Shown here piece after piece: positions 3,584 to 59,748 of a stretch of 59,770 nucleotides of DNA. The stretch covers positions 1 through 59,770 of the forward strand of contig JBGTCF010000146.1 of assembly GCA_041748975.1 (NCBI GenBank). Reading direction: 5' to 3'. A model generated the notes under the pieces. That model was not told the origin of the DNA, made no database searches, and saw only the letters and a program-made list of their open reading frames with translations. Origin of the DNA: Pyrinomonadaceae bacterium. GTDB taxonomy: Bacteria > Acidobacteriota > Blastocatellia > Pyrinomonadales > Pyrinomonadaceae. The number at the start of each line of letters is the position of its first letter. The first letter of the stretch is position 1. The position numbers and the translations under genes were made by a program.

Positions 3584-3618
3584 AAAAAAATTCTTGCCTG
3601 GCGGTTATTAGATTTGAA

Positions 3619-3701: not shown

Positions 3702-3705
3702 ACGA

Positions 3706-4158: not shown

Positions 4159-4170
4159 ATTGATCTCCAG

Positions 4171-4258: not shown

Positions 4259-4291
4259 CACGTTTTTGACATGGATACCCATCGCTATTGT

Positions 4292-4380: not shown

Positions 4381-4402
4381 CTCAAAACTAAACGGGCTAA
4401 AA

Positions 4403-44762: not shown

Positions 44763-45959
44763 CTAGGTCGCAAACATCAGTTTTTCGATCTGATCGGTAG
44801 CATCGGTCTGCATGGCTGGTAGGACATGTGAATAGGTGTCTAGGGTCAAAACAATCGAAGCATGTCCGAGGCGTTCCGATACTATCTTAGGATTTATCCC
44901 TTTCGAAAGCAGGAGCGTAGCCATTGTATGACGCAGATCATACAATCTAATTGTTTTCAATTCCGGCTTCTTATCTGTTCGATCTTCGTTTTCCTTCCTG
45001 ATCTTCTCATTTGCTAACCTTATGACCTTCTTAAAGTGCCTCCGATAGAAATTCTGGTGTTGGATCGGGGTGCCTATAACCGACGGGAATACAAGGTCGT
45101 AGTCTTGATATACATCATTGATCTTCATTCTCGATTCCAGTTGCTTGACGCGGTGCACTTTCAAGGCGGCTAGTGACGTCTTCGAAAGCGGAATGCTTCG
45201 CCGACTCTGTTTTGTCTTCGGCTCCTCGAAAGCGAATCCGCCGCCCTTGAGCGGAACGACAGATCGGCGGACGGACAAACGGGAATTGTCAAAGTCTATA
45301 TCCTTCCACTGGAGGCCAAGATACTCCTCCGGCCTCATACCCGTCTCGATGGCTAGTAGGAAGGCCGGATAATACTGATCGGTTTTTGCCGCTTCGAGGA
45401 ATATGGCAGTCTCCAAGGCGGTAAAATACATCATCTCCTTCTTCTCAATTCGTGGGAGTTCGCAAAGATCGCAGGGATTTTGAAAGACCATTTTCATCCT
45501 CACGGCCCACTCTAATGCCGGGGAAAGAACGTTATGGACGTGGCGGACAGTTTTTGCAGAATAACCTGCTTTGACCATGCCGTTATACATCTTCTGAATT
45601 TCGTATGCTTGGAGATCGCAGAGCCGGGTCAAACCAATTTGCTTTCTGACATGGCATCTCAACAGAGATTTATAACCCTCAAACGTCCGACTTCGGAGTT
45701 TATTCTTAGCAACATCCTCCAGCCAGCTATCTAGAAATTGGTCTAGAGGCATCGAGGCCGGGTCAACAAATATGCCTAGATCTTTTTCGCGTAGCTTTGC
45801 AGTCAAGAATTTCTGAGCGTCCTTCTTCGTGCCGTGAATGGTCTTACCGAAGTACTTCCGTTTGCCGCTTGCATCCCGGCCAAGAAAGATCCGCACCAAC
45901 CACGTATCCTCCATTACTGAGCCATTTCGACGTTTTTGTTTCCGTATTTGTCCCGCCAT
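44763..45959 (-). CDS. int: Tyrosine site-specific integrase
   Basis: 398 aa with catalytic-residue contexts ETGMRPEE (R), LRHTMAT (HxxR), GHASI and DTYSH (Y). Confidence 0.9.
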   Translation of the reverse strand: MAGQIRKQKRRNGSVMEDTWLVRIFLGRDASGKRKYFGKTIHGTKKDAQKFLTAKLREKDLGIFVDPASMPLDQFLDSWLEDVAKNKLRSRTFEGYKSLLRCHVRKQIGLTRLCDLQAYEIQKMYNGMVKAGYSAKTVRHVHNVLSPALEWAVRMKMVFQNPCDLCELPRIEKKEMMYFTALETAIFLEAAKTDQYYPAFLLAIETGMRPEEYLGLQWKDIDFDNSRLSVRRSVVPLKGGGFAFEEPKTKQSRRSIPLSKTSLAALKVHRVKQLESRMKINDVYQDYDLVFPSVIGTPIQHQNFYRRHFKKVIRLANEKIRKENEDRTDKKPELKTIRLYDLRHTMATLLLSKGINPKIVSERLGHASIVLTLDTYSHVLPAMQTDATDQIEKLMFAT

Positions 45960-47123: not shown

Positions 47124-48929
47124 TTACTCCTCAACATCACTAAGGACTTCGTAGACATACGGTTTCCCCCGCTTACCCTCCCCTTCTCGACCAATTTTGG
47201 CTTCATCAACCAATTCCCTCAGAGCTTTCGCCAGAATACCGTGATTGAATCCCTCGATCCGCTCTTTGATTACCTTCTCCTCCAGCTTTTCGTCCGGCGA
47301 AAAGACCTCTAAAATCGCAGACTTCGCTTTCGCTCGGGTTAGGTGACTCAGATCGCCCATTCCCCTTATTATGCCGGTATCGTTGTCCAATTCGACTACG
47401 GTTTCTGGCATATCCTCACCGTACCTCTGCGTCGTCATCAACGTTCGTCGACCGTCTTTCTTTCTCATTTGAATATGACAGTCAACTGACCCAAAAAGAG
47501 CTGTAGAGCCTAATAAAGCGTCGCCTCCGGTCCGGTCCATTTTCGAGTCGTGATGCAAAGCGAGTATATGGCATCCGCTTCTGCGGGCGAGATCGATAAA
47601 TGGCTCAAGTCCTCTGGACATGGATCCGTAATCATTAAAATCGCGAACCCGTAATACTCTGGACAACGGATCGATAATCACGAGGATCGGTTGATACTCT
47701 GCTATCGCTAGTTCGAGTTCTTTTATCGCTTCTTCCGGGGTCGCCCCAGTGTGTATGTAAATGTCGTCGCAATTCTGGTCCATACGCTCGAAATGGTTAC
47801 GAACCTCCGAGCGTTTTTCTTCGAGGCAAAGGTATAACACCGGTCCTTTCGAAGTCGGACGGTCGAGGAACGCCGATCCAGAGGCAACAGAAACTGTGAG
47901 ATTTCGTGCCACGGTTGATTTGCCGACCTTTGGCTTTGCCGAGCAAAGTGAGAACCCCCCACACGGAAGGGTTCTGTCCCATACAAACGAAATTTCCTCA
48001 GCCGGCTCATTTAGTAACTCGTTAAGCGTTGTGAAATGGAATTTTGAGGTGATGATCGCCGCCCCAGCAACGTTAGGCTTCCAAGGATCGGCGCGTTGGA
48101 CCAGATCCATTAGATCATCTGCCGTTCCACCATTTTCAATGAAACCACTAACATCCCCTTTATCCGGCAGACCCGGAAGGTTTACGATCAGCGTCTCTTT
48201 CGTAATACCATTCAAAGATTCCGCAACGCTCGCCGAATGGTCGAGGCCCGCGCCGTCATTATCAGGCAGGATGACAACGACCTTGCCCTCGAACCATCGA
48301 TTGAACTTCGACTTCCACTTCCCCGCTCCGAACGGGTTACACGTACCGGTTAGACCAACGCTTCGTAGAGTTTCAACATCTTTCTCTCCCTCGACAATGT
48401 AAATCAAATCAGATTTGACCACCTCTGGTAGGTTATAAGGAATCAACTCGACACCCTTCAAGTTATAGATCCATCCGTCTGCCTTCGGGGCCTCGCCCTC
48501 ATGCTGCCGTCGTTTGGCGACGAAATCCTTGTCCTCGCTGCCGTCGCGATATGTCAATTTTAGCCTCACAATCGTGTAAACCGGGTCACCCCGCACATCC
48601 AAGTAGTGGTAATCGGCAACCGGCTCCTTCGAAATGGGTGCACCTCTCTCTGACTTAGCTTTTTTGAAAGCGTTCTTCGACGAATGGGACGATCCGTCCT
48701 GTCGCGCCGTAGCAATCTCGTACCCTGTATTGCCCGAGAGACTTGGACGTATGGCGTTTATCACTTCTTCATAAGTGCAACCCGCATGACAATGAAGGAG
48801 CAATATACCGCCCTTCTCAGTAATACTTAATGAAGGGTTCCGATCGTCGTGGGCCGGACACAGCGCCATGTACCCATGCCCGTTCTTCTTCACTCGCTCG
48901 AGGCGGATCAAGACTTCCTGGAGATTCAT
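47124..48929 (-). CDS. Primase-helicase (CHC2 zinc finger + Toprim + RecA/RepA-like P-loop ATPase)
   Basis: CPAHDDRNPSLSI...HCHAGC, Toprim IVEGEKDVETL / ILPDNDGAGL, Walker A AKPKVGKST, Walker B LVIIDPLSRV. The start at 48929 has a GGAGGTG RBS and an ATGA overlap with the upstream ORF. Confidence 0.85.
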   Translation of the reverse strand: MNLQEVLIRLERVKKNGHGYMALCPAHDDRNPSLSITEKGGILLLHCHAGCTYEEVINAIRPSLSGNTGYEIATARQDGSSHSSKNAFKKAKSERGAPISKEPVADYHYLDVRGDPVYTIVRLKLTYRDGSEDKDFVAKRRQHEGEAPKADGWIYNLKGVELIPYNLPEVVKSDLIYIVEGEKDVETLRSVGLTGTCNPFGAGKWKSKFNRWFEGKVVVILPDNDGAGLDHSASVAESLNGITKETLIVNLPGLPDKGDVSGFIENGGTADDLMDLVQRADPWKPNVAGAAIITSKFHFTTLNELLNEPAEEISFVWDRTLPCGGFSLCSAKPKVGKSTVARNLTVSVASGSAFLDRPTSKGPVLYLCLEEKRSEVRNHFERMDQNCDDIYIHTGATPEEAIKELELAIAEYQPILVIIDPLSRVLRVRDFNDYGSMSRGLEPFIDLARRSGCHILALHHDSKMDRTGGDALLGSTALFGSVDCHIQMRKKDGRRTLMTTQRYGEDMPETVVELDNDTGIIRGMGDLSHLTRAKAKSAILEVFSPDEKLEEKVIKERIEGFNHGILAKALRELVDEAKIGREGEGKRGKPYVYEVLSDVEE

Positions 48930-49447
48930 GCCCACCTCCTGAGATGTATGCCAATGTTCTGGAGAACTCGCTCGATCAAACGTTCCGCAGCCTTCGCGTC
49001 GAGTGAAAGCACTAGTTGGAGGCAATCTTTGCAGATCACCGGGCACGATGTTAGGCGATCGAAACCGACCGGCGAATTACAGCGGTAGCAGCGGAACAAA
49101 CGAATGACCCTGTTTCGCCGCGGTTCCGGGTTCTTTTCTTCGTTCGTGCGCTCCGTGCTTTTTTCAGTTCGTCGGGTGAAAAGACAGTCCGAGCACCGTG
49201 GCGTCGCCTTTCCTCGCAGTTCATAGGTCCGCTTCACTTGCCTTCTGCACTTATCGCACCGTATCGAAGGGGCCTCTCCCTCGGGCTTGTATTCGTGTGA
49301 TATAATCAGCGTTGTTAGACCTTTGATCTGTGAGTTCATTTCGGGGTTTGATCCGGTGCCGAAGCTCGAATCTTCGGCACTTTCTTTATCTGTATTCCAA
49401 AAATCTTTGTTACTTTTCATCCTGTTCTCCTCCTTGAAGGTTTCCAC
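48926..49447 (-). CDS. Cys-rich (double zinc-ribbon-like) hypothetical protein
   Basis: CDKC...CSDC and CYRC...CKDC pairs; translationally coupled to the primase. Confidence 0.45.
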   Translation of the reverse strand: METFKEENRMKSNKDFWNTDKESAEDSSFGTGSNPEMNSQIKGLTTLIISHEYKPEGEAPSIRCDKCRRQVKRTYELRGKATPRCSDCLFTRRTEKSTERTNEEKNPEPRRNRVIRLFRCYRCNSPVGFDRLTSCPVICKDCLQLVLSLDAKAAERLIERVLQNIGIHLRRWA

Positions 49448-49610: not shown

Positions 49611-49769
49611 TTCAATCACCTCCCAAAAAAAAGAGTCCGGTACGAGAATTCCTCGTCCGGACTCAAGATCGCCTATCCAAAATGGAAGCGTCAAAAGATT
49701 TTTTTGAATATTCGTAAAAACGCCTGGCTAATTCGGAAGATGCAAAACCGGTCTTTGCTCATTCCACCT

Positions 49770-50924
49770 CTAAGTGCATTGTTTTCTGTTACTTACATTT
49801 TTTCCTTGCCCAAAATATTTCTTCATTGTCGAATAGGCAATTTCCGGAAACTCGAGCAAATGGATCGCATGGCTCATTGCAAATGCCTCGGGCTTTTCTT
49901 CGGCTGACAATCTCCGAAAATCGCTTGCTTGGCCTTCCCATGCATTGACTGCTTTATTCCAAAGGGCGGTGGGGGCAGTTATAAGGTCAGTCTCAGATCG
50001 CAACCACTGGTTTATCCGATAGTCAAAATCCTTGTCAACAAGTTCCTTGTGAGCAAATGTCCAAAGTGGCTGCCCATCTTTGTGACGCAGTCCATCCACC
50101 TTGTCGTGGAATTCCCGTTTCCGATCATCTGTCCACACAAACTTCTCAGTTGTTCGGCGGCCACCTCTTTTTATCCCGAGCCTTTCATTAGAGAAGCGTC
50201 TTCCGTGCCGGAAAAAAGTGTCCATAATCTTTCCAAAAAACTCGCGGTCCATTGTTTCACCCATGGTATCCCTTATCATCCCTTCGCTCGCCATTATTCC
50301 CTCCATCAGCATACGGCCCGTAATTTCAACAATGATACTAGGTGTCGCCCGCTCGATTTGCGACCTTACGTTGTCTTCAAAACGTTCGACCGAATCATAA
50401 AATCGCTCTCGCGTCAGGTCATTCTGAACAACCCGATCAATCTCGGCCTCAGCCGCTCGGAGACCAGCCGGCCCTAGGTCGGGTTCTTTCGCAGGAATTA
50501 TTAAGCAATCCATGACTTGATCGAGGTTATAAAGAGGCTCTTCGTCAAGGACATTCTCTATAAGGTCCACCGCGATCCGATACCGGATAGCAAGGAGGAT
50601 GCCCGAAGCCTTTATGCCGATGATAGCCAATAACCTCAGTTCGATTTGACTTGCCCAAAGTAGGATCGAGACGGCGCGGCATAGGATCATAAGTCCCCTA
50701 ATTGGCTCTTCGCGAAAGACTTCTATCCGAACTTCGGAAAAAAACTCTAAATTAGCGATAACAGAAATGAAAAGGCTGGAATCAGTTTCGGCAGCCGGTA
50801 ATGTCTCTGGATCGCATTTAAGACGTTCGGGCCAATTACTGGTTATCTGTAGTATTATGTCGACAATACGCGCCTTTAACTCCGGTTCGGAGAGACAGCT
50901 TAGATCATCGTAGATGAGGTACAT
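49770..50924 (-). CDS. Hypothetical 384-aa protein, no recognisable motif
   Basis: Long ORF co-oriented with the replication module, lying at its junction with the Type I R-M operon. Confidence 0.5.
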   Translation of the reverse strand: MYLIYDDLSCLSEPELKARIVDIILQITSNWPERLKCDPETLPAAETDSSLFISVIANLEFFSEVRIEVFREEPIRGLMILCRAVSILLWASQIELRLLAIIGIKASGILLAIRYRIAVDLIENVLDEEPLYNLDQVMDCLIIPAKEPDLGPAGLRAAEAEIDRVVQNDLTRERFYDSVERFEDNVRSQIERATPSIIVEITGRMLMEGIMASEGMIRDTMGETMDREFFGKIMDTFFRHGRRFSNERLGIKRGGRRTTEKFVWTDDRKREFHDKVDGLRHKDGQPLWTFAHKELVDKDFDYRINQWLRSETDLITAPTALWNKAVNAWEGQASDFRRLSAEEKPEAFAMSHAIHLLEFPEIAYSTMKKYFGQGKNVSNRKQCT

Positions 50925-51143: not shown

Positions 51144-52616
51144 ATGATCACAGGCGAACTCAAGGCTCAGGTTGATGCTGTTTGGAATGCCTTTGCGGCC
51201 GGTGGAATATCCAATCCACTTGAAGTCATTGAGCAGGTAACTTTTCTGCTGTTTATTAAGCGGCTCGACGATCTCCATACGGCGAAGGAAAAGAAGGCGA
51301 ATTCTCTGAAGCGTGAGATCGAAAAGCCCATATTTGGGTCGGATCAACAAGATTATCGATGGTCGCGGTTTAAGAATCTTGAGGCTGGCAAGATGTTCTC
51401 GACGGTAGCTGATGGTGTGTTTCCGTTTATCAAGACCTTTTCGGGCGACGAGACGACGTATGCGGCGTTTATGAAGGAGGCGCGGTTGTCGATACCAACG
51501 GCTGGGCTGTTGACTAAGGTTGTCGATCTGATCGATCAGATCCCAATGGACGACCGCGACACCAAAGGCGATGTTTACGAGTATATGCTTGGCAAGATCG
51601 CGTCGGCGGGCCGTAACGGGCAGTTTCGCACGCCGCGGCATATCATCAAGCTGATGGTCGAGATGGTCGCTCCTAAGCCGACGGATGTTGTTTGCGATCC
51701 GGCGTGCGGTACTGGTGGCTTCCTGGTTGCGGTGAACGAATACCTCCGCGATCACCATAAGGAAATATTCCAGGACAATGCGCTGACGGAACATTTCTAT
51801 AAGCGGCTGTTCAACGGATTCGATTTTGATAATACGATGCTGCGGATCGGGAGTATGAATATGATGCTCCACGGAATCGACAACCCGAATATCCGCTACA
51901 AAGATTCTCTCGCAGAGGAACACTCGGCTGACGATTCGCGGTATTCGCTGATCCTCGCAAATCCGCCGTTCGCCGGGTCGCTCGATGCCGACATAACGGC
52001 AAAAGACCTGCAAAAGGTCGTCAAGACAAAAAAGACCGAACTGCTCTTTCTCGCGTTGTTTCTAAAGCTGCTCAAAACCGGCGGACGTGCGGCGGTCATT
52101 GTGCCGGACGGCGTTTTGTTCGGTTCGTCTAATGCTCATAAATCGCTGCGGCAAATTCTGGTCGATGAGCAAAAACTGGACGGCATTATCTCGATGCCGT
52201 CGGGTGTTTTCAAACCCTACGCCGGTGTCTCGACCGCCATTCTGCTGTTTACGAAGACTAATTCCGGCGGCACGGACAATGTCTGGTTCTACGACATGAA
52301 GGCCGACGGCCTCTCGCTCGATGACAAACGCAGCGAGCTTGATGGCTCAAAGCACGAAACCAACAATTTGCCGGACATTCTAGCTCGCTGGCACAATCGG
52401 GCTGCTGAAGTTGTACGCTCAAGGACGGATCAGTCGTTACTCGTTCCAAAATCTGAGATAGCCGCGAATGATTACGATCTGAGTATAAATCGCTATAAGG
52501 AAGTTCAATACGATGAGTTCGAACATGCTTCACCGACACAGATATTAGCGGAACTCGATCAATTGGAAAATGAGATTCAGGCGGATTTGAAAGCATTGAG
52601 GGCGATGATCGGATGA
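51144..52616 (+). CDS. hsdM: Type I R-M methyltransferase subunit HsdM
   Basis: N-terminal HsdM_N-like helix bundle, motif I DPACGTGGFL, motif IV LANPPFAGS. Confidence 0.9.
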   Translation: MITGELKAQVDAVWNAFAAGGISNPLEVIEQVTFLLFIKRLDDLHTAKEKKANSLKREIEKPIFGSDQQDYRWSRFKNLEAGKMFSTVADGVFPFIKTFSGDETTYAAFMKEARLSIPTAGLLTKVVDLIDQIPMDDRDTKGDVYEYMLGKIASAGRNGQFRTPRHIIKLMVEMVAPKPTDVVCDPACGTGGFLVAVNEYLRDHHKEIFQDNALTEHFYKRLFNGFDFDNTMLRIGSMNMMLHGIDNPNIRYKDSLAEEHSADDSRYSLILANPPFAGSLDADITAKDLQKVVKTKKTELLFLALFLKLLKTGGRAAVIVPDGVLFGSSNAHKSLRQILVDEQKLDGIISMPSGVFKPYAGVSTAILLFTKTNSGGTDNVWFYDMKADGLSLDDKRSELDGSKHETNNLPDILARWHNRAAEVVRSRTDQSLLVPKSEIAANDYDLSINRYKEVQYDEFEHASPTQILAELDQLENEIQADLKALRAMIG

Positions 52617-53887
52617 TTTCTGACTTCCCATTAGTTCGAATCGGAAATATTGTCGATGCTATTTCGACATGCAATCCGAGCACTCTAAAAACGACGTCAT
52701 CTTTTGAGTACGTGGATATAAGCTCTATCAATCGAGATAGCAAGCAAATTGAAGGAACGACAGTCATCCCCGTCAATGACGCCCCGAGCCGTGCGCGTCA
52801 AATAATTAAGTCTCATGACATATTAGTTTCTACTGTCCGACCTAATCTCAATGCTGTCGCTCAGGTGCCGCCCCGTCTTAACGATCAAATAGCTTCAACG
52901 GGATTCACCGTTCTTAGACCGCAAAAATTGCACCTTGATGACCGATACCTCTTTCATTGGGTAAAATCGCCCGCTTTCGTTTCGCATCTCTCGAAAGAAG
53001 CAACGGGTGCGAGCTATCCAGCGGTTAGCGACAAGATTGTGAAGGATACGAGCATTCCGTTGCCGCCGTTGGGCGAGCAAAAGCGGATCGCGGAGGTTTT
53101 GGATAAAGCGGACGCTCTCCGCCAAAAACGCCGCCGCGCCCTGCAAAAACTCGACACGCTTCTCCAATCCGTCTTCCTCGAAATGTTCGGCGACCCAGTT
53201 AGGAATCCGAAAGGTTGGGATACTCGCACTCTTCCCGAGCTAATTCTTCCGGGTAAGAACTCCTTAAAACGTGGACCATTTGGCGGTACATTGAAAAAAG
53301 AAATTTTTGTCGATTCGGGGTACTTGGTATACGAACAATATCACGCGCTTAATAATGATTATTCATTCGGTCGGTATTTCATCACTGAAGAGAAGTACAA
53401 GGAACTCATCGGCTTTAGCGTCAAGCCAAATGACATAATAATTAGCTGTTCTGGAGTATATCTCGGAAAACTCTCAATAGTTCCTGACGGGGCAAAACCT
53501 GGAATCATAAACCAAGCACTCCTCAAGGTTTCCCTTGATCAAGAAAAAATGAAGACAGTTGTGTTTGCATACATCTTCGGAAGTTCTCAATTCAAGAGAA
53601 AGTATTTTCCATCAAATCGTGGAGTGGCAATACCAAACCTACCACCAATGGATGTTATGAAGAAGATTGGATTCATTACGCCGCCTCTTGAGATTCAGCA
53701 AAAGTTTGCCGACAACGTTAATAGAATCTACGCGATAAAGAAACGATATGAAATCGGAACGACAAGTCTAGAGAATTTGTTTTCGTCCATTCGGAATAGA
53801 GCATTCAAAGGCGAACTATTTGAAACGAGTATGCCCTCGGTAGGATTCGAACCTGAAAACGCATGGCAACAAACTTTGCATTCCTAA
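52613..53887 (+). CDS. hsdS: Type I R-M specificity subunit HsdS
   Basis: Two TRD halves separated by conserved helices (LPPLGEQKRIAEVLDKADAL... and PPLEIQQKFADNVNRIY...). ATGA overlap with hsdM. Confidence 0.9.
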   Translation: MISDFPLVRIGNIVDAISTCNPSTLKTTSSFEYVDISSINRDSKQIEGTTVIPVNDAPSRARQIIKSHDILVSTVRPNLNAVAQVPPRLNDQIASTGFTVLRPQKLHLDDRYLFHWVKSPAFVSHLSKEATGASYPAVSDKIVKDTSIPLPPLGEQKRIAEVLDKADALRQKRRRALQKLDTLLQSVFLEMFGDPVRNPKGWDTRTLPELILPGKNSLKRGPFGGTLKKEIFVDSGYLVYEQYHALNNDYSFGRYFITEEKYKELIGFSVKPNDIIISCSGVYLGKLSIVPDGAKPGIINQALLKVSLDQEKMKTVVFAYIFGSSQFKRKYFPSNRGVAIPNLPPMDVMKKIGFITPPLEIQQKFADNVNRIYAIKKRYEIGTTSLENLFSSIRNRAFKGELFETSMPSVGFEPENAWQQTLHS

Positions 53888-53980
53888 CGAATTGTGCAAC
53901 CGAAACCTACGAAGGAGGCATCTTTTCACTTGCCTAAATTGTAGGATGTAAGCTACATTTAGTTAAAGTGATCATGATTG

Positions 53981-54301
53981 ATGAAAGTTCAGTACTACGT
54001 CACGGCAGAAGGCAAAGAGCCATTTACGAAGTGGTTAGGTCGCCTGAGAGACAAGGTTGCTCACGCTGCGATCCTTACGAGGATTGCTCGGATCAAACTT
54101 AATCTTCCTGGCGATCACAGGTCCGTCGGGGGTGGTGTGTATGAATTTCGAGTCGATGTTGGGGCCGGATATCGGGTTTACTTCGCCCAGTCCGGTAAAG
54201 AGGTTGTTTTGCTTTTGTGCGGCGGGGATAAAGATTCCCAGGACGCAGATATCGTAAAAGCCAAAGAATATTGGAAGGATTATAAGAAAGCAAACGAGTA
54301 A
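53981..54301 (+). CDS. higB: HigB/RelE-superfamily toxin (addiction-module killer type)
   Basis: ..EPFTKWL..L.D.....I..RI.R..L.. GD.RSVGGGVYEFRVDVGAGYRVYF...G..VVLLLCGGDKDSQ..DI..A. Confidence 0.75.
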   Translation: MKVQYYVTAEGKEPFTKWLGRLRDKVAHAAILTRIARIKLNLPGDHRSVGGGVYEFRVDVGAGYRVYFAQSGKEVVLLLCGGDKDSQDADIVKAKEYWKDYKKANE

Positions 54302-54310
54302 AGGAGCTAC

Positions 54311-54802
54311 GTGGCGGCAAAAAAGAAACAAGAACGAGTACGTGATTTCGACGATTATTTGGTTAAGGCTCTGAAAGATCCTGAATTGGCCAGCGAATAT
54401 TTAAATGCTGCGATGGCTGACGGGGACATCCGCGTTTTTCTGATGGCACTTGGCGATGTTGCGAAGGCGGTAGGCATGTCCAAGATTGCCGCGGCAACTG
54501 AGCTTGACCGTGCAAATATATACCGAGCGGTGTCGGATGCCGGCAATCCGTTGATAAGCACTGTCGCAGCAATACTGGACACGATCGGACTTCGATTAAC
54601 CACCGAACTTATCCATAAAGAAGTTTCAGTTATCGAACCTCCTTCAAGAGTCCTAGCTTTTGAAACGCGGGCCGGAATGCAAGCGGCTTTTCAACCGATC
54701 GGCGGTGTTTACGAGGCTCCGGGGATCGAAGTAAACGAGTATGGTCTGCAGGTTCCGTCAACGGCACCAGCCGCTAATCAAGAATTAGCTTTAGCCGCAT
54801 GA
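54311..54802 (+). CDS. higA: HigA-type antitoxin (addiction-module antidote HTH) with a C-terminal extension of about 60 aa
   Basis: ..DPELASEYLNAA..DGD...FL.ALGDVAKA.GMSKIA..T.L.R.N.YRA.S..GNP...T..A.L...GLRL; it then continues about 60 aa beyond the usual end. GTG start. Confidence 0.7.
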   Translation: MAAKKKQERVRDFDDYLVKALKDPELASEYLNAAMADGDIRVFLMALGDVAKAVGMSKIAAATELDRANIYRAVSDAGNPLISTVAAILDTIGLRLTTELIHKEVSVIEPPSRVLAFETRAGMQAAFQPIGGVYEAPGIEVNEYGLQVPSTAPAANQELALAA

Positions 54803-54819
54803 TAAACGCTTAAACGACT

Positions 54820-55329
54820 ATGGGACAAAGTCCGTTAGCAATCAAGAAATATTTCCTTCAATCTCTGAATTTTCATTTGAAAACAGGGTTTGAATTTGGG
54901 CAGGTTGCGGCCGCTCCCGAGACGGTAATGCCGAATGTCCAAGTGTCTGTTCAATACGCGCAAGATCCACAGGAACCGCTCGAATGGCGCGTGGTTCTTG
55001 ATATCAAAGGCGGAACTGATGTTGAGCCTTTTCCATATACTTTCGACGCAGCTTTCGCTGGTTTTTTTCGCGTTGCTGACAACTACCCTCTGGAGCAGCG
55101 AGTGCTTCTTGTTCAGGTAAACGCTCCGTCGATCCTTTATGCTGCAGCACGAGAGTTTCTTTCCATAGTCACGGCTCGATCGCCGTATCCGCCGATATTG
55201 CTCGGATCGGTGTCGTTTGTGCCCGATCCACCTTCGGATACAACTAAGCCGGTAGCTGCCAAAAAAGCGAAGCCGAAGATTACAAAGAAACCGGCCCTAA
55301 AGAAGCCGGTGAATAAGGCTAAGAAATAA
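54820..55329 (+). CDS. SecB-like chaperone with a Lys/Pro-rich basic tail
   Basis: VNAPSILYAAAREFLSIVTARSPYPPILLGSVSF parallels the E. coli SecB segment [32 protein letters not shown]. The tail is KPVAAKKAKPKITKKPALKKPVNKAKK. Confidence 0.7.
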   Translation: MGQSPLAIKKYFLQSLNFHLKTGFEFGQVAAAPETVMPNVQVSVQYAQDPQEPLEWRVVLDIKGGTDVEPFPYTFDAAFAGFFRVADNYPLEQRVLLVQVNAPSILYAAAREFLSIVTARSPYPPILLGSVSFVPDPPSDTTKPVAAKKAKPKITKKPALKKPVNKAKK

Positions 55330-55371
55330 TCCCGACACTGATTAGGAAAACTCGAGCACTGGCGGTTATAA

Positions 55372-58300
55372 ATGCCCACAAACTTCGCATTCTTAAAAAA
55401 TGAATGGCAGGAGATCTATTCGACTGCCATTAAAGCCGAAAGTCTGGCCAATACCGATCCGGGCACGGCCTGCTTTCACGCGCGCCGGACGCTTGAACTT
55501 GTCGTTAATTGGATCTACACGTATGACGAAGAACTGACACAGCCATACGACAATCAGCTAAGCACTAAACTTCTCGATAACGGTTTTAAGGACAACACTC
55601 CGCCGGGCGTGTTTACCAAAATGATCTTTATCAAGAATATCGGCAACAAAGCCGTTCACTCTAACAAGGTTATTTCGACCGGAGACGCCGTTCAGACCGT
55701 CCGCGAACTCTTTCACATCCTCTATTGGATGGCCCGCAGCTACACGCAGGGCGACGCTTCGCAGTTTGACGGCGTTGAGTTTGTAGAGGCAAATGTCCCG
55801 GGCAGACAGGTGTCGATCCCCGTCAATACATTCAACCAGCTCAAGGCCGTTTATGAAGACACAAAAGCAAAGGCCGCCGAGGAAGCCGAAAAGCAAAAAC
55901 AACAAGCTCTCGTCGAACCAACGATCGATGCTGAACTCGAACGTCTCCGCAAACAGGTCGCTGCCGCCAAGCGTAAAAACGAGCAGCATCCGGATACGCA
56001 CAACTACTCCGAGGCCGACACCCGCAAACACATAATCGACCTGCTGCTAACCGAAGCCGGCTGGACGATCGGCCAAAACGTAACCGTCGAACTCGAAGTC
56101 GCCGGAATGCCGAATAACGAAGGCGTCGGGTATGTCGATTACGTCCTTTTCGGCGCCGACGGCAAGCCACTGGCTGTTATCGAGGCAAAGAAGACGGCAG
56201 TTGATGCCTATGTCGGCAAACAGCAGGCAAAGCTCTACGCCGATTGCATCGAGGCAAAATATGGCCGTCGTCCGGTTATCTTCTACACGAACGGCTATGA
56301 GATCCACCTGTGGGATGACACCAACTATCCGCCGAGACTGGTCCAGGGATTTTACACCCGAGACGAACTCGACCTGATGATCCAACGCCGCGAAATGCGG
56401 CTGCCACTTCGTGATAATGACATAAATACCGACATCGTCGGACGCCATTACCAGACCCGGGCTATCACCCGAATGGCCGAGAATTTTACGGCAAATCGTC
56501 GAAAGGGTTTGCTCGTAATGGTTACCGGAGCCGGTAAGACCCGTACAGTGATTGCTCTCTGTGATCTGCTGCAGCGTGCAGGTTGGGTAAAGCGCGTTTT
56601 GTTCCTCGCCGATCGAGTGGCACTCGTGAAACAAGCATCGAATGCGTTCAAAGCGCACCTGCCAAACTCAAATCCGGTAAATCTGCTAAACGATCGCGGT
56701 GCGACCGGCAGCCGTGTCTTCCTAAGTACATATCCAACGATGATGAACCTCATCAACGAAATGGACGGCGACGAACGGCGTTTCGGAATCGGTTATTTTG
56801 ACCTTGTGGTCGTTGACGAAGCTCATCGTTCGATCTATCAGAAATATAAGGCAATATTCGAGTATTTTGATTCGTTTCTTGTTGGTCTGACAGCAACGCC
56901 CAAGGGCGAGGTCGATAAAAACACGTATCAGATGTTCGACCTCCAAACAGGCGTTCCAACCGACGCTTACGACCTGGACGAAGCGGTCGCGGATAAGTTC
57001 CTCGTGCCTTCCGTGAATATCAGCGTGCCCACTCGGTTCATCCGCGAGGGGATTAGCTACGAGAACCTATCCGAAGAAGAAAAGACCCAATGGGACGAGA
57101 TCGAGTGGAACGAAGACGGCGAAGCGCCTGATCACATTGATCCGGCCGCACTCAACAACTGGCTTTTTAACCGCGACACGGTCGACAAGGTTCTCAAATT
57201 CCTGATGGAAGCCGGCCTCAAAGTCGAAGGCGGCGACAAACTCGGCAAGACAATAATCTTTGCAAAAAACCGCCGCCATGCCGCCATGATCGTCGAGCGA
57301 TTTGACGCAAACTATCCTCATTTGAGAGGCCAGTTTGCCGCTGCGATCGACTACAAAACAACTTACGCTCAAAAGCTGTTAGACGATTTCTCGACTGAAT
57401 CGAAAAATCCTCAGATCGCGGTTTCCATCGATATGCTAGACACGGGCATTGATATTCCAGAAATCGTTAATCTCGTATTTTTCAAAGCCGTTAGGTCCAA
57501 AACAAAATTCACGCAGATGATCGGGCGAGGAACACGGTTGCGGCCAGATCTGTTCGGTCTCGGGCAAGATAAAGAGTTTTTCTACATTTTTGATTACTGT
57601 CAGAATTTCGAGTATTTCAATCAGCGTGTGACTGAGGTCGATTCGGCCTCGCAGGCTTCGCTGACGGCAAAGATCTTCGGCAAGCGGGTCGAACTAATCG
57701 ACACGATCCGGCAAATGACTGAAAGATCTGACGAACTCGCCAAAATGGATCAGACTCTGACTGAAACTCTTCAATTGACCATCGAGGCGATCAATATGGA
57801 GAACTTCGTAGTGCGTCCGCATCGCCGCGAGGTCGAGAAGTTTCGAGATCAAAAAGCCTGGGAAAAGCTCGATGCTGAAAAATATTATGAATTGACGAAG
57901 ATCGTCGCCGCTCTCCCGACCGAATTGGATTCCGAAGACGAAACGGCGAAACGGTTCGACCTGCTGATGTTCAAGTTGATGCTGACGATCCTCAGTCCGC
58001 ACCGCGATTACGACAAATTACGTGATCAAGTGATGGAGATCGCAAACCGCCTCGAAGAAAAGGACAATTTGCCGATGGTGCACGAGCAGATCGAGCTTAT
58101 TCAGGAACTTCAGCGGGACGAATATTGGCGGGATGTGTCCGTTCCGACGCTCGAACAGGTTAGGAAGAAAATTCGGCTTCTGGTCCAGTTTATCGACCCG
58201 ACACAACGGCAGATCATTTACACCGACTTCGAGGACGAACTAAGTTCTCCCGACGAGATCGTCTACGGCCCGTCTGCAACCGGTCTGACGCGGTACAAGA

Positions 58301-58755
58301 CTAAAGTCCTGCACTTCCTTAAAAATGAAGAAAACAATATCGTTCTGCAAAAGCTCAAGCGAAACAAACAGATCACGCCGAGTGACATTCGCGAATTAGA
58401 ACGAATCTTGTTCGAATCCGGCGAACTCGGAACCCGTGAAGATTTTGAACAGGCGTTCGGAAAGCAAGAAAAACTCGGCCTTTTCATCCGCAGCCTGATC
58501 GGCCTCGACCGCCACGAAGCGAAGCTCGTCTTCGCCGACTTCCTCGACGGCCAGCGATACAATTCAAATCAGATCGAATTCGTAAATCTGATAATCGACT
58601 ACGTCACAAAAAACGGTGCGATGGATCCCGCGATGCTATATGAATCTCCTTACACCGACTACAACCCAAACGGCGTAAACGGCGTATTCTCCGATGGTGA
58701 AGCTGGGAAGATCGTTGAACTACTCGATGAAATTCGCTTAAATGCGGCTGCCTGA
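55372..58755 (+). CDS. hsdR: Type I restriction enzyme HsdR with an N-terminal DUF4145-like extension
   Basis: 1127 aa. N-terminal ~130 aa are DUF4145-like (..FHARRTLELVVNW...IGNKAVHS), followed by a coiled coil. Then a PD-(D/E)xK N-domain (EADTRK...YVDYVL....AVIEAKK), helicase motifs VTGAGKTRT and VVDEAHRS, and an EcoEI_R_C-like C-terminus. Confidence 0.9.
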   Translation: MPTNFAFLKNEWQEIYSTAIKAESLANTDPGTACFHARRTLELVVNWIYTYDEELTQPYDNQLSTKLLDNGFKDNTPPGVFTKMIFIKNIGNKAVHSNKVISTGDAVQTVRELFHILYWMARSYTQGDASQFDGVEFVEANVPGRQVSIPVNTFNQLKAVYEDTKAKAAEEAEKQKQQALVEPTIDAELERLRKQVAAAKRKNEQHPDTHNYSEADTRKHIIDLLLTEAGWTIGQNVTVELEVAGMPNNEGVGYVDYVLFGADGKPLAVIEAKKTAVDAYVGKQQAKLYADCIEAKYGRRPVIFYTNGYEIHLWDDTNYPPRLVQGFYTRDELDLMIQRREMRLPLRDNDINTDIVGRHYQTRAITRMAENFTANRRKGLLVMVTGAGKTRTVIALCDLLQRAGWVKRVLFLADRVALVKQASNAFKAHLPNSNPVNLLNDRGATGSRVFLSTYPTMMNLINEMDGDERRFGIGYFDLVVVDEAHRSIYQKYKAIFEYFDSFLVGLTATPKGEVDKNTYQMFDLQTGVPTDAYDLDEAVADKFLVPSVNISVPTRFIREGISYENLSEEEKTQWDEIEWNEDGEAPDHIDPAALNNWLFNRDTVDKVLKFLMEAGLKVEGGDKLGKTIIFAKNRRHAAMIVERFDANYPHLRGQFAAAIDYKTTYAQKLLDDFSTESKNPQIAVSIDMLDTGIDIPEIVNLVFFKAVRSKTKFTQMIGRGTRLRPDLFGLGQDKEFFYIFDYCQNFEYFNQRVTEVDSASQASLTAKIFGKRVELIDTIRQMTERSDELAKMDQTLTETLQLTIEAINMENFVVRPHRREVEKFRDQKAWEKLDAEKYYELTKIVAALPTELDSEDETAKRFDLLMFKLMLTILSPHRDYDKLRDQVMEIANRLEEKDNLPMVHEQIELIQELQRDEYWRDVSVPTLEQVRKKIRLLVQFIDPTQRQIIYTDFEDELSSPDEIVYGPSATGLTRYKTKVLHFLKNEENNIVLQKLKRNKQITPSDIRELERILFESGELGTREDFEQAFGKQEKLGLFIRSLIGLDRHEAKLVFADFLDGQRYNSNQIEFVNLIIDYVTKNGAMDPAMLYESPYTDYNPNGVNGVFSDGEAGKIVELLDEIRLNAAA

Positions 58756-58857: not shown

Positions 58858-59013
58858 TACCCAGAATTCTTTTTCAAGCCTTTTGGCAAAAATCGATTCT
58901 CATATATTCTGAAATATGAGAGGCCTAATGCTATGTAAGACTTGGTTTGACGCCAGGTATCACCGTAAGCATTGGGCCTTTTAGCGCCTATTTTAAGGAG
59001 GACTACGAATCAA

Positions 59014-59655: not shown

Positions 59656-59717
59656 TTAACTGTTGTAAAGATTGGTGATCCGAGCAGGACTCGAACCTGC
59701 GACCCAGTGGTTAAAAG
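59637..59717 (-). other. att-type direct repeat, tRNA-proximal copy
   Basis: 59666..59717 is identical to 7454..7505; 59637..59665 is homologous to 7423..7453. Confidence 0.9.
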
Positions 59718-59748
59718 CCACTTGCTCTACCGACTGAGCTATCGGACC
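59673..59748 (-). tRNA. tRNA-Lys (anticodon UUU), 76 nt with encoded CCA
   Basis: Folded by hand. Acceptor GGTCCGA/TCGGATC (one G-U), D arm GCTC/GAGC, anticodon arm AGTGG-CTTTTAA-CCACT, T arm GCAGG-TTCGAGT-CCTGC, discriminator A, CCA. Confidence 0.95.

What the first reader, a model, noticed from the sequence alone, without database searches (positions are those of the whole stretch)
53978..55329. Tripartite toxin-antitoxin-chaperone (HigB / HigA with C-terminal extension / SecB-like) cassette inserted between hsdS and hsdR of a Type I R-M operon
Three co-oriented, tightly spaced genes sit between hsdS (ends 53887) and hsdR (starts 55372).

- A RelE/HigB-type killer protein.
- A HigA-type HTH antidote whose sequence continues ~60 aa beyond the usual domain end.
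- A protein with the SecB signature segment.

This matches the TAC arrangement described for Mycobacterium tuberculosis Rv1955-Rv1957, where a SecB-like chaperone stabilises the antitoxin through a C-terminal chaperone-addiction extension. Here it is nested inside a restriction operon on a mobile element. That suggests a combined defence/addiction unit, or coupling of hsdR expression to TAC transcription. I am not aware of TAC-in-Type-I-R-M being described.
Basis: partly seen in the sequence, partly recalled or inferred. Interest (0 to 1): 0.72.

Follow-up and report, generated by a model that had tools for sequence, protein, structure and literature searches.

The report
Toxin-antitoxin-chaperone cassette inside restriction operon
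Three small genes between the specificity and nuclease genes of a Type I restriction system form a toxin-antitoxin-chaperone module of a known kind, and finding such modules repeatedly just after hsdS in unrelated bacteria suggests, without proving, that they travel or work together with restriction systems.

Summary
Three co-oriented genes lie between hsdS (ends 53887) and hsdR (starts 55372):
- a HigB1/Gp49-type RelE-fold toxin (53981-54301);
- an HI1420-type HTH antitoxin (54311-54802) with a ~63-aa tail ending ELALAA;
- a SecB-fold protein (54820-55329).

HMM hits, AlphaFold models and Foldseek place the toxin closest to M. tuberculosis HigB1, the TAC toxin. They place the third protein with SecB and Rv1957. 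Close two-gene relatives of the toxin have short antitoxins and no chaperone. By sequence and structure prediction this is therefore a TAC module.

The cassette carries its own conserved promoter/operator, and no terminator separates it from hsdR.

The nesting recurs. TAC follows hsdS in 7 of 10 informative loci of this cassette type, across several Type I families. A HicAB-SecB TAC sits between hsdS and hsdR of another family. In plasmid relatives of the same restriction family the slot is empty or holds other cargo. hsdS plus TAC form one hypervariable block between conserved hsdM and hsdR.

The most likely function is chaperone-gated abortive infection or addiction backing up restriction. 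This is inferred, not shown. The six TAC papers I read do not mention this nesting, but my targeted literature searches failed, so prior description is not excluded. I rate it a new variant of known kinds, of moderate interest.

The parts
51144..52616 (+). hsdM, the Type I methyltransferase subunit. It is the conserved left frame of the operon.
   Evidence: Pfam N6_Mtase 1.5e-67 plus HsdM_N. PADLOC MTase_I 2e-192, full length. 77% aa identity to L001. DNA similarity to L001 ends exactly at 52616.
52613..53887 (+). hsdS, the specificity subunit with two target-recognition domains. It is part of the hypervariable block.
   Evidence: Pfam Methylase_S, two stretches. PADLOC Specificity_I 7e-77. 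Only 35-47% identical to HsdS of L001/L006, whereas HsdM and HsdR are 77-82% identical.
53919..53973 (+). Conserved upstream block of the cassette. It contains a putative -35 TTGCCT (53930-53935), an 18-nt spacer and a putative -10 TACATT (53954-53959). An inverted repeat TGTAG (53940-53944) / CTACA (53953-53957) lies inside it and is the likely antitoxin operator.
   Evidence: The alignment of eight loci, including non-RM contexts, shows invariant TTGC...TGTAG..T.TA..CTACA.TT. Imperfect palindromes were found at the same place in L001, L006 and L017. Promoter and operator function is inferred; the strict consensus scan did not call this site.
53981..54301 (+). Toxin of the HigB1/Gp49 (HI1419) type, with a RelE fold. 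It is a probable ribosome-dependent mRNA endonuclease.
   Evidence: TIGR02683 6.8e-35 and Pfam Gp49. AF2 model pLDDT 91.6. Best Foldseek hits are Mtb HigB1 7nbu/7awk with TM 0.75-0.78, including the C-terminal helix. The profile hits HigB1 at E 0.015 over the full length. R47, E55, R57 and R65 align with HigB-TAC K58, E66, R68 and R77 (PMC9098466).
54311..54610 (+). Antitoxin residues 1-100: the HI1420-type HTH DNA-binding and toxin-neutralising domain.
   Evidence: PF21716 2.8e-19 over residues 17-98. In 4283 homologues the match to the query ends at about residues 97-125.
54611..54802 (+). Antitoxin residues 101-163 plus the stop codon. This is a C-terminal extension, the putative chaperone-addiction (ChAD) region, ending ...NQELALAA, which resembles an LAA-type ClpXP tag.
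   Evidence: The extension is absent from the bipartite relatives L039 (119 aa) and L040 (111 aa), which lack a chaperone. It is present (158-173 aa) in all chaperone-linked relatives. Its sequence is poorly conserved apart from FE(T/A) and the E-x-A-x-(A/T/S)-A end. LAA ends of TAC antitoxins are described in PMC11618068. Chaperone binding was not tested.
54820..55221 (+). SecB-like chaperone core, residues 1-134.
   Evidence: Pfam SecB 1.4e-10. The clade profile hits H. influenzae SecB at 2.9e-9. The AF2 model has four strands plus a long helix. Foldseek matches SecB at 1.5e-7 and Rv1957+ChAD (5mtw) at 2.7e-6. PADLOC PD-T4-9_C (CmdC) 1.9e-5.
55222..55329 (+). Lys/Pro-rich basic tail of the chaperone, residues 135-169 plus the stop codon. 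Its function is unknown.
   Evidence: 12 Lys in 35 residues; pI 10.5 against 5.0 for the core. A basic tail is present in all 17 clade members. pLDDT is below 50.
55372..58755 (+). hsdR, an EcoAI/EcoEI-like Type I restriction subunit with an N-terminal DUF4145 domain. It is the conserved right frame of the operon.
   Evidence: Pfam ResIII, EcoEI_R_C, HSDR_N and DUF4145. NCBIfam PRK11448 1.6e-84. PADLOC REase_I 8e-175. 78-80% identical to L001/L006, with DNA similarity resuming exactly at 55372. No terminator-like site lies between 55329 and 55372.
44763..45959 (-). Tyrosine integrase at the far end of the putative integrative element that carries the operon.
   Evidence: Pfam Phage_integrase 1e-22 plus Phage_int_SAM_3.
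47124..49046 (-). Primase/AAA_25 replication protein of the element.
   Evidence: Pfam AAA_25 1.4e-25 and CHC2 zinc finger. It is homologous to the gene upstream of the RM-TAC operon in L006.
59673..59748 (-). tRNA-Lys(UUU), the probable integration target bounding the element.
   Evidence: ARAGORN. No exact direct repeat of its 3' end was found near the integrase.

Best explanation
Positions 53919-55329 hold a self-contained tripartite toxin-antitoxin-chaperone (TAC) module with its own promoter and operator. It sits in the variable hsdS-hsdR junction of an intact Type I (EcoAI/EcoEI-like) restriction-modification operon, on a tRNA-Lys-associated integrative element.

Inferred mechanism, by homology to characterised TACs:
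1. The HTH antitoxin binds and neutralises the HigB1-type ribosome-dependent mRNase, and represses the TGTAG-N8-CTACA operator.
2. The antitoxin's ~63-aa tail makes it unstable and ends in an LAA-type ClpXP tag.
3. A tetramer of the SecB-like chaperone binds that tail and shields it.
4. When the chaperone is titrated away, the antitoxin is degraded. The most likely competitors are newly made phage structural proteins, as for lambda gpV with HigBAC and T4 Gp23 with CmdTAC.
5. The freed toxin cleaves mRNA at the ribosomal A site and translation stops. The result is abortive infection.

The same circuit makes the cassette addictive, so it also stabilises the island and its hsd genes. TAC therefore acts as a second layer behind restriction.

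Because no terminator follows the chaperone gene, hsdR is probably co-transcribed, at least partly from the TAC promoter.

What is shown: gene content, folds, the co-occurrence of tail and chaperone, the conserved upstream element, and the recurrent position after hsdS. What is inferred: toxicity, chaperone dependence, the trigger, ClpXP involvement and co-transcription.
For: Identity of the three proteins:
- HMM hits are above curated cut-offs.
- The toxin model (pLDDT 91.6) best matches Mtb HigB1, at TM 0.75-0.78.
- The residues aligned with HigB-TAC E66, R68 and R77 are invariant in the family, and the position aligned with K58 is basic in the window (R47). These four were within 4 Å of the mRNA; the K58A, R68A and R77A substitutions abolished toxicity (PMC9098466).
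- The chaperone model matches SecB and the Rv1957-ChAD complex. It also matches PADLOC CmdC.

Chaperone addiction:
- All nine chaperone-linked antitoxins are 158-173 aa.
- The two bipartite relatives, whose toxins are 79% and 67% identical to the window's, have antitoxins of 119 and 111 aa and no SecB gene.
- The tail ends ELALAA. LAA ends are reported for CmdA and other TAC antitoxins and act as ClpXP tags (PMC11618068). HigA1 has a C-terminal ClpX degron (PMC8165232).

Autonomy: the upstream block is conserved in eight loci, whatever the context.

Defence role by analogy: HigBAC, CmdTAC and MqsRAC defend against phages, with the chaperone acting as sensor (bioRxiv 10.1101/2024.02.24.581848; PMC11618068; PMC9519451).

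Context:
- TAC follows hsdS directly in the window, L041, L001, L006, L005, L017 and L031.
- HicAB-SecB sits between hsdS and hsdR in L010.
- Neighbours include GmrSD (L017), an SLFN/AlbA_2 ATPase (L005) and a PIN-domain TA (L018).

No terminator-like site lies between the chaperone gene and hsdR in the window or in L006.
Against: - No experiment exists for this cassette or any close relative.
- The toxin match to HigB1 is distant (22% identity, profile E 0.015). The equivalent of catalytic K95 cannot be placed with confidence.
- The tail shows no sequence similarity to the Mtb ChAD. This is expected, since ChADs are not conserved (PMC5105189), but it means chaperone binding is not verified.
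- An 'AA' C-terminus is also common in short HI1420 antitoxins (26% against 39%). The degron-like end is therefore not specific to TAC versions.
- The putative promoter scores only 8 of 12 against consensus, and the scan did not call it.
- The position after hsdS could reflect a recombination hotspot with no functional link. Three of ten informative loci of this cassette type are not next to RM genes (L007, L020, L029).
- The host phylum is not established, and sigma-70 rules may not apply.
Confidence: 0.7

Rival explanations
1. The cassette is purely an addiction (post-segregational killing) module. Its only effect is to stabilise the integrative element and the hsd operon, and it does not sense phage.
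For: It lies on an integrase/primase element next to a tRNA gene. Related cassettes ride on other small integrase islands, L007 and L029. TAC modules were first described in genomic islands, prophages and plasmids (PMC3581621).
Against: Every TAC tested for phage defence so far (CmdTAC, MqsRAC, HigBAC) gave protection (PMC9519451; PMC11618068; bioRxiv 10.1101/2024.02.24.581848). Its neighbours are defence genes: Type I RM, GmrSD and SLFN-like ATPase genes. Addiction and defence are not mutually exclusive.
Confidence: 0.2
2. The cassette is a stress-responsive growth regulator, as first proposed for M. tuberculosis TAC. Accumulating unfolded or unexported host proteins titrate the chaperone and transiently activate the toxin. 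Under this reading the restriction context is incidental.
For: This is the model proposed for Rv1955-57 (PMC3581621; PMC8165232). Some related TACs sit among housekeeping genes: L011 next to secG, and L032-34.
Against: The HI1419/HI1420-type cassettes are mostly in RM operons or on mobile islands (7 of 10 directly after hsdS). In the window's chaperone, two of the three acidic residues that contact SecA are replaced (Ec D20 to S15, E24 to H19), and the tail is basic rather than acidic (PMC6377645). This argues against a link to protein export.
Confidence: 0.1
3. There is functional coupling with the restriction enzyme. TAC guards or regulates the Type I system in the manner of PrrC with EcoprrI. 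For example, it could be triggered when phage anti-restriction factors hit the enzyme, when ClpXP is engaged in degrading HsdR, or it could control hsdR transcription from its autoregulated promoter.
For: The position immediately after hsdS recurs in at least four different Type I families, and with two unrelated TA pairs, HI1419/1420 and HicAB. The gaps to hsdR are 22-42 bp without a terminator. From my own knowledge: PrrC occupies the same slot in the prr locus, and ClpXP mediates restriction alleviation for Type IA and IB HsdR.
Against: In L005, L017 and L031 no hsdR follows the cassette, so feeding transcription into hsdR is not a conserved feature. The same slot in related RM operons holds unrelated cargo or nothing, which fits a generic insertion or recombination hotspot. 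No physical or genetic interaction has been tested.
Confidence: 0.15
4. The third gene is the host's housekeeping SecB, lying by chance next to an ordinary HigBA-type pair.
For: By sequence profile the clade is closer to canonical SecB (2.9e-9) than to Rv1957, which gave no profile hit.
Against: The T-A-C order with 9-17 bp gaps is conserved in more than ten loci. The gene lies on a mobile island inside an RM operon. The extended antitoxin and the SecB gene co-occur, and both are absent from the bipartite relatives. The basic tail replaces the acidic tail of canonical SecB (my own knowledge), which is involved in contacts with SecA.
Confidence: 0.02

Closest known systems
M. tuberculosis TAC, HigB1-HigA1-SecB^TA (Rv1955-Rv1956-Rv1957)
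   Same: - Same gene order, T-A-C.
- The toxin is in the same Pfam family (Gp49, PF05973), and HigB1 is the best structural match, including the extra C-terminal helix.
- The chaperone has the SecB fold and matches 5mtw.
- The antitoxin is an HTH protein with a C-terminal extension that ends in an acidic-then-aliphatic degron-like sequence (PMC8165232).
   Different: - The antitoxin's HTH domain belongs to the HI1420 family (PF21716), not the XRE/HTH_3 type.
- The tail shows no sequence similarity to the Mtb ChAD.
- Toxin identity is only 22%.
- The chaperone has a Lys-rich basic tail.
- The Mtb locus lies in an 81-kb island with other TAs (PMC3581621), not inside an RM operon.
E. coli anti-phage TACs: HigBAC (NT1F31), CmdTAC (PD-T4-9, ECOR22) and MqsRAC (C496_10)
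   Same: - Same tripartite logic.
- The chaperone is homologous to CmdC (PADLOC 1.9e-5).
- The antitoxin ends in LAA, like CmdA.
- These systems provide the mechanistic model used here: the chaperone acts as phage-protein sensor, and ClpP-dependent loss of the antitoxin follows.
   Different: - HigBAC (NT1F31) and the CmdTAC of Mets et al. (E. coli O112ab:H26) are prophage-encoded; I did not establish the context of ECOR22 CmdTAC or of MqsRAC. The toxin and antitoxin families differ (CmdT is an ADP-ribosyltransferase, MqsR a different RNase).
- None of the papers read places them inside a Type I operon.
Bipartite HI1419/HI1420 (TIGR02683/TIGR02684) toxin-antitoxin pairs
   Same: - The toxin is 79% (L039) and 67% (L040) identical.
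- The antitoxin N-terminal domain is about 60% identical.
- The upstream operator region is the same.
   Different: - The bipartite antitoxins stop about 10-20 residues after the HTH domain.
- No chaperone gene follows.
- Both examples lie among housekeeping genes.
Accessory genes nested in Type I R-M operons, such as prrC between hsdS and hsdR of the E. coli prr locus and the rlo genes of Campylobacter hsd loci (from my own knowledge; not retrieved here)
   Same: A suicide or dormancy effector sits in the hsdS-hsdR junction of a Type I operon. In plasmid relatives of this RM family the same junction carries other cargo: a DUF262/DUF1524 GmrSD-like gene, XisH/XisI-like genes, and DUF2569.
   Different: PrrC is a single anticodon nuclease kept latent by the restriction enzyme itself. 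Here the effector has its own antitoxin and chaperone, and no interaction with the Hsd proteins is indicated.

Membership tests
Toxin-antitoxin-chaperone (TAC) systems | A tricistronic, co-oriented toxin - antitoxin - SecB-like chaperone arrangement with short intergenic gaps | tested here: met
   The gaps are 9 and 17 bp. The same order is found in more than ten related loci.
Toxin-antitoxin-chaperone (TAC) systems | The third protein is a SecB homologue with the SecB fold | tested here: met
   Pfam SecB 1.4e-10, above the cut-off. The profile hits SecB 1fx3 at 2.9e-9. AF2 plus Foldseek matches SecB at 1.5e-7 and Rv1957 (5mtw) at 2.7e-6.
Toxin-antitoxin-chaperone (TAC) systems | The antitoxin carries a C-terminal extension that is absent from two-component homologues | tested here: met
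   The HTH domain ends at about residue 98-100 of 163. Bipartite relatives have antitoxins of 111-119 aa and no chaperone, while chaperone-linked ones are 158-173 aa. Among the top 150 family representatives, 76 have fewer than 25 residues after the domain and 59 have 40 or more.
Toxin-antitoxin-chaperone (TAC) systems | The antitoxin's C-terminus carries a ClpXP-type degron (LAA or aliphatic end) | tested here: met
   The antitoxin ends ELALAA. Relatives end AYAA, ASAA, AFTA and ALSA. The feature is described in PMC11618068 and PMC8165232. One caveat: 26% of short family members also end in AA.
Toxin-antitoxin-chaperone (TAC) systems | The chaperone binds the extension and is required for toxin neutralisation (chaperone addiction) | not testable with these tools
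   This needs co-expression and binding assays.
Toxin-antitoxin-chaperone (TAC) systems | The toxin is toxic and is neutralised by the cognate antitoxin | not testable with these tools
   There is only indirect support. The residues aligned with HigB-TAC E66, R68 and R77 are invariant in the family, and the position aligned with K58 is basic in the window (R47). The K58A, R68A and R77A substitutions abolished toxicity (PMC9098466).
HigB1/Gp49 (PF05973) RelE-fold ribosome-dependent mRNases | Family HMM match and RelE/BECR fold | tested here: met
   Pfam Gp49 at 26 bits against a 23.9-bit cut-off, and TIGR02683 6.8e-35. Foldseek's top hits are HigB1 at TM 0.75-0.78, followed by HigB2, RelE and YoeB.
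HigB1/Gp49 (PF05973) RelE-fold ribosome-dependent mRNases | A complete catalytic set equivalent to HigB-TAC R68, R77 and K95 | tested here: inconclusive
   R57 and R65 align with R68 and R77. The K95 equivalent is ambiguous: the invariant K84 lies 2-3 positions away in the HMMER alignment.
Canonical export chaperone SecB | Acidic SecA-binding cluster (Ec D20, E24, E77) and an acidic C-terminal tail | tested here: not met
   The aligned residues in the window protein are S15, H19 and D76 (cluster as defined in PMC6377645). The tail is Lys-rich with pI 10.5. NCBIfam SecB equivalog scores are 20-44 bits against cut-offs of 103-181.
Type I restriction-modification system (EcoAI/EcoEI-like) | Full-length hsdM, hsdS and hsdR in one co-oriented cluster | tested here: met
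   HsdR carries ResIII, Helicase_C and EcoEI_R_C. NCBIfam EcoAI-family and PRK11448 scores are below the equivalog cut-offs, so subtype IB is only approximate.

The most novel reading that the evidence does not exclude
hsdS and TAC form a single exchangeable hypervariable block inside Type I operons, and the TAC is functionally wired to the restriction enzyme in a PrrC-like 'guard' arrangement. The chaperone-gated toxin would fire when restriction is bypassed or inhibited. Possible triggers are phage anti-restriction proteins, phage structural proteins made after escape, or diversion of ClpXP during restriction alleviation. Derepression of the TAC promoter would at the same time boost hsdR transcription. 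This would be a conserved two-layer immune operon, not a chance insertion.
Probability: 0.15. Interest if true: 0.75.

Novelty: new variant of a known kind. Interest (0 to 1): 0.5.

Why it matters
TAC modules were recently shown to be phage sensors. Type I restriction operons are long known to harbour suicide effectors such as PrrC.

A TAC that recurs immediately after hsdS would link the two themes. It does so across several Type I families and with two unrelated toxin-antitoxin pairs, and it varies together with hsdS between conserved hsdM and hsdR. The arrangement points to layered immunity, restriction first and abortive infection second, exchanged as one block.

It also offers a natural series for studying how chaperone addiction is gained or lost. 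The bipartite relatives have toxins 79% and 67% identical to the TAC toxin.

If the cassette is merely cargo in a recombination hotspot, the finding still adds a well-defined, uncultured-lineage TAC subfamily (HI1419/HI1420 plus a SecB with a basic tail) to the catalogue. It would then not be conceptually new.

Tried and rejected
- **Single-sequence PDB searches.** Searches with the three proteins gave nothing meaningful; the weak KaiA hit for the chaperone is spurious. Profiles were needed.
- **Eight-sequence toxin profile.** It found no PDB match.
- **Antitoxin profile.** It gave only a non-significant hit to S. pneumoniae HigA (E 0.39).
- **Chaperone tblastn against plasmids and phages.** This found one canonical SecB and nothing else, so annotated collections hold no close relative.
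- **Genome-collection scan.** Only two loci were returned.
- **Strict promoter and terminator scans.** They did not call the conserved upstream element, and overall hit counts equal shuffled expectation. Promoter assignment therefore rests on conservation alone.
- **Search for an att direct repeat.** An exact-match search between the tRNA-Lys end and the integrase side found none of 12 nt or more.
- **'Whole cassette is mosaic' idea.** I first thought the window toxin had been swapped in from a bipartite TA. L041 then showed a close full TAC relative (T 83%, A 79%, C 68%) after hsdS. The better statement is that two divergent TAC alleles occupy the same RM frame.
- **LAA degron as a TAC-specific mark.** This was weakened because short family members also often end in AA.
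- **Coincident coordinates in L039.** These were checked and dismissed; there is no DNA similarity outside the TA genes.
- **Targeted literature searches.** Searches for TA or TAC genes inside hsd operons failed repeatedly with time-outs; an attempt to open one such paper directly also timed out. The state of prior description rests on six papers read and on memory.


Full report
**1. What is in the sequence**

The window contains three co-oriented ORFs between hsdS (52613-53887) and hsdR (55372-58755).
- 53978/53981-54301 (107/106 aa). Homologues all begin MKV, so the ATG at 53981 is the likelier start.
- 54311-54802 (163 aa), with a GTG start preceded by AAGGAG.
- 54820-55329 (169 aa).

The gaps are 93 bp (hsdS to T), 9 bp, 17 bp, and 42 bp (C to hsdR).

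hsdM (51144-52616), hsdS and hsdR all match full-length Type I models. HsdR has ResIII/helicase, EcoEI_R_C and an N-terminal DUF4145 domain, which makes it EcoAI/EcoEI-like. The restriction system looks intact.

The operon lies on what looks like an integrative element:
- a tyrosine integrase (44763-45959);
- a small HTH protein (46644-47027);
- a primase/AAA_25 gene (47124-49046);
- an HTH_17 excisionase-like gene (49410-49694);
- an unknown 384-aa gene;
- the operon itself;
- an HD-domain ORF;
- tRNA-Lys (59673-59748).

I found no exact att repeat.

**2. Identity of the three proteins**

*Toxin.*
- It matches TIGR02683 (upstrm_HI1419, RelE/ParE family) at 6.8e-35 and Pfam Gp49 above threshold. 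Gp49 is the Pfam family that contains M. tuberculosis HigB1 (PMC11980606).
- A 58-sequence profile has HigB1 (7nbu/7awk) as its best PDB hit, over the full length, at E 0.015.
- The AlphaFold model (pLDDT 91.6) has HigB1 as its two best Foldseek matches (TM 0.75-0.78), ahead of HigB2, RelE and YoeB.
- The model includes a long C-terminal helix. In HigB-TAC the C-terminal helix α3 contacts the P-site tRNA (PMC9098466).
- E55, R57 and R65 are invariant in the family, and R47 is basic. They align with HigB-TAC E66, R68, R77 and K58. All four lie within 4 Å of the mRNA in the ribosome-bound structure; alanine substitution of K58, R68 and R77 abolished toxicity (PMC9098466).
- The equivalent of K95 is ambiguous; K84 is the candidate.

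*Antitoxin.*
- PF21716/TIGR02684 (dnstrm_HI1420) matches residues 17-98 only.
- An exhaustive search found 4283 relatives. Their matches to the query end at about residue 100-125.
- Of the top 150 representatives, 76 end within 25 residues of the domain and 59 carry extensions of 40 residues or more.

*Third protein.*
- It matches Pfam SecB at 1.4e-10.
- The clade profile hits H. influenzae and E. coli SecB.
- The model has four strands and a long helix.
- Foldseek returns SecB structures, followed by Rv1957 bound to the ChAD peptide.
- PADLOC matches the CmdTAC chaperone.

The third protein is not a canonical export SecB.
- NCBIfam equivalog scores are far below cut-off.
- Two of the three acidic SecA-contact residues are replaced: S15 and H19 stand in for Ec D20 and E24 (PMC6377645).
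- Residues 135-169 form a Lys/Pro-rich tail with pI 10.5. The tail is basic in all 17 clade members.

**3. Is the antitoxin tail a chaperone-addiction region?**

The best evidence is comparative.
- The window toxin's near relatives at 79% and 67% identity (L039, L040) belong to ordinary two-gene modules among housekeeping genes. Their antitoxins are 119 and 111 aa, and no SecB gene follows.
- Every relative that has the SecB gene has an antitoxin of 158-173 aa. Extension and chaperone thus appear and disappear together.

The tail is poorly conserved apart from an FE(T/A) motif and the extreme C-terminus (ELALAA, EFAYAA, ELASAA, ELAFTA, ELALSA). Poor conservation is expected for ChADs (PMC5105189).

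The LAA end matches the ClpXP tag noted for CmdA 'and other TAC antitoxins' (PMC11618068) and the ClpX degron of HigA1 (PMC8165232). There is a caveat: 26% of short family members also end in AA. The degron-like end is therefore a family trait retained in the TAC versions, not a TAC-specific mark.

Binding and dependence could not be tested here.

**4. The cassette is autonomous**

The roughly 55 bp upstream of the toxin gene are conserved in eight loci, whatever lies further upstream. The conserved sequence is CATCTTTTnACTTGCnnnnnTTGTAGnnTnTAnnCTACAnTT. In the window it reads as follows:
- a -35-like TTGCCT (53930-53935);
- an 18-nt spacer;
- a -10-like TACATT (53954-53959);
- an inverted repeat TGTAG/CTACA (53940-53957) overlapping the spacer and the -10.

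This is the classic layout of an antitoxin-repressed promoter. It is inferred from conservation only; the consensus scan did not call it.

No terminator-like site separates the chaperone gene from hsdR in the window or in L006, and the gaps are 22-42 bp. hsdR is therefore probably transcribed by read-through from hsdMS and from the TAC promoter.

**5. The nesting is recurrent**

I surveyed loci encoding relatives of the chaperone.

For HI1419/HI1420-type TACs with usable upstream sequence, the cassette directly follows a co-oriented hsdS in seven loci:
- the window;
- L041, the closest relative (T 83%, A 79% with the same APAANQELALAA end);
- L001;
- L006;
- L005, arranged hsdM-hsdS-TAC-SLFN/AlbA_2, with Tn7-like genes nearby;
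- L017, arranged hsdR-hsdM-hsdS-TAC-GmrSD;
- L031.

It does not follow hsdS in L007/L013 (an integrase island in a Pyrinomonadales MAG), L020, or L029/L030 (an integrase island with a second SecB gene).

A TAC with an unrelated TA pair, HicA-HicB-SecB, sits between hsdS and hsdR of a different Type I family in L010.

More distant TACs are not in RM operons:
- Gp49/HTH_3 types (L011, L027, L032-34);
- a PARP-like toxin type (L014);
- a DUF4258/MqsA type (L019).

Four of the seven positives share one RM family and may descend from a single event. The others use different hsd gene orders or families, so several independent associations are likely.

**6. The slot and the variable block**

In plasmid relatives of the same RM family (HsdR 46-51% identical), the hsdS-hsdR junction varies:
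- empty, with overlapping genes, in Cryobacterium pA26BH1;
- a hypothetical gene plus a DUF262/DUF1524 GmrSD-like gene in Ruegeria TM1040;
- XisH/XisI-like genes in Leptolyngbya, which also has a PIN-domain pair between hsdM and hsdS;
- a DUF2569 gene in Acinetobacter.

The junction is thus a general cargo slot.

Among the window, L001 and L006, identities are as follows:

| Protein | Window vs L001/L006 | L001 vs L006 |
|---|---|---|
| HsdM | 77% (L001 only) | not compared |
| HsdR | 78-80% | 82% |
| HsdS | 35-47% | 32% |
| Toxin | 52-53% | 80% |
| Antitoxin | 46-50% | 63% |
| Chaperone | 51-55% | 68% |

DNA similarity to L001 stops exactly at the hsdM stop (52616) and resumes exactly at the hsdR start (55372). 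hsdS plus TAC therefore behave as one hypervariable block in a conserved frame. Two divergent TAC alleles occupy that frame: the window/L041 type and the L001/L006 type.

**7. Most likely function**

Three TACs have been characterised experimentally:
- HigBAC, whose chaperone is titrated by lambda gpV (bioRxiv 10.1101/2024.02.24.581848);
- CmdTAC, in which T4 capsid protein displaces the antitoxin and ClpP degrades it (PMC11618068);
- MqsRAC (PMC9519451).

By homology with these, I consider chaperone-gated abortive infection the best explanation, with addiction of the island as an inherent by-product.

Rivals are pure addiction, a stress-response role as proposed for Mtb, and a direct PrrC-like functional coupling to the restriction enzyme. 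The last is the most novel reading. The recurrent position after hsdS and the read-through into hsdR are compatible with it. The absence of hsdR downstream in three loci, and the unrelated cargo in the same slot, argue for a hotspot instead.

**8. Comparison and novelty**

By architecture and by every testable feature, the cassette is a TAC. It is not an orthologue of Rv1955-57: the antitoxin family differs, the tail is unrelated, and toxin identity is 22%.

TACs, their mobility and their defence role are known. Suicide effectors nested in Type I operons are also known; the PrrC and rlo examples come from my own knowledge and were not retrieved here.

Three things appear to be undescribed:
- the recurrent TAC-after-hsdS arrangement;
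- its co-variation with hsdS;
- this HI1419/HI1420 TAC subfamily with a basic-tailed SecB.

Six TAC papers searched for 'hsd' or 'restriction-modification' gave no relevant mention. My targeted literature searches all timed out, as did one attempt to open a paper directly. Novelty is therefore provisional.

I rate the finding as a new variant of known kinds, with interest 0.5. It is a solid, well-supported annotation with a modestly surprising and testable genomic association, but it does not reveal a new mechanism.

Noticed in passing
window 55222-55326 (chaperone residues 135-169): The SecB-like chaperone has a Lys/Pro-rich tail (12 Lys in 35 residues, pI 10.5). The tail is basic in all 17 clade members, whereas canonical SecB has an acidic tail. 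It could bind nucleic acid or the ribosome. Its function is unknown.
   Followed up: partly
window 52617-55371 compared with L001 and L006: DNA similarity to related operons stops exactly at the hsdM stop codon and resumes exactly at the hsdR start codon. hsdS plus TAC thus form one hypervariable block: HsdM and HsdR are 77-82% identical, against 35-55% for HsdS, T, A and C.
   Followed up: partly
L039 8001-8677 and L040 5529-6159: The toxin's near relatives (79% and 67% identity) are ordinary two-gene modules with antitoxins of 119 and 111 aa and no chaperone, set among housekeeping genes. Together with the TAC versions they form a natural series for gain or loss of chaperone addiction.
   Followed up: partly
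L010 893-9208: A HicA-HicB-SecB TAC lies between hsdS and hsdR of a different Type I family (HsdR with T1R_D3-like/T1RH-like_C domains). This appears to be an independent case of the same nesting.
   Followed up: partly
L029 329-2574 and L030 242-2487: Two SecB-like genes lie in tandem, the first at the contig edge and the second in a complete TAC. They sit on a small integrase/Phage_CRI/HTH_17 island.
   Followed up: no
L014 5972-7462; L019 5925-7513: Two distant TAC variants turned up. One is a PARP-like (CmdT-like) toxin with an unknown antitoxin and SecB, in a Chthoniobacteraceae MAG. The other is a DUF4258 toxin with a 245-aa MqsA-like antitoxin and SecB.
   Followed up: no
L041 2-1097: In the closest relative of the window cassette, hsdS is split into two ORFs (179 aa partial and 140 aa). 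This may be a frameshift, a phase-variable or disrupted specificity gene, or an assembly error.
   Followed up: no
window 905-6703 (- strand): A second restriction system is present: a ResIII helicase-type gene (905-3583) and an N6_N4 DNA methylase (4403-6703). It looks like a Type III R-M pair.
   Followed up: no
window 31486-40542 (+ strand): A 3018-aa ORF carries many bacterial Ig-like repeats (Big_3_5 x7, Big_13, Big_5) and F5/8 type C domains. It is a giant surface or adhesin-like protein.
   Followed up: no
window 58972-59547: An HD-domain ORF (weak HD_4/HD hits) lies between hsdR and tRNA-Lys, at the edge of the element. Its role is unknown.
   Followed up: no
window 49770-50924 (- strand) and L006 2874-3962: A 384-aa gene with no family match lies immediately upstream of hsdM, on the opposite strand. 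A gene of similar size (362 aa) holds the same position in L006, so it may be a conserved island component.
   Followed up: no
HI1420 antitoxin family (P0044-P0193): Many family members, short or extended, end in an -AA C-terminus, often preceded by an acidic residue (E-S-L-A-A and similar). This suggests ClpXP lability across the whole family.
   Followed up: partly
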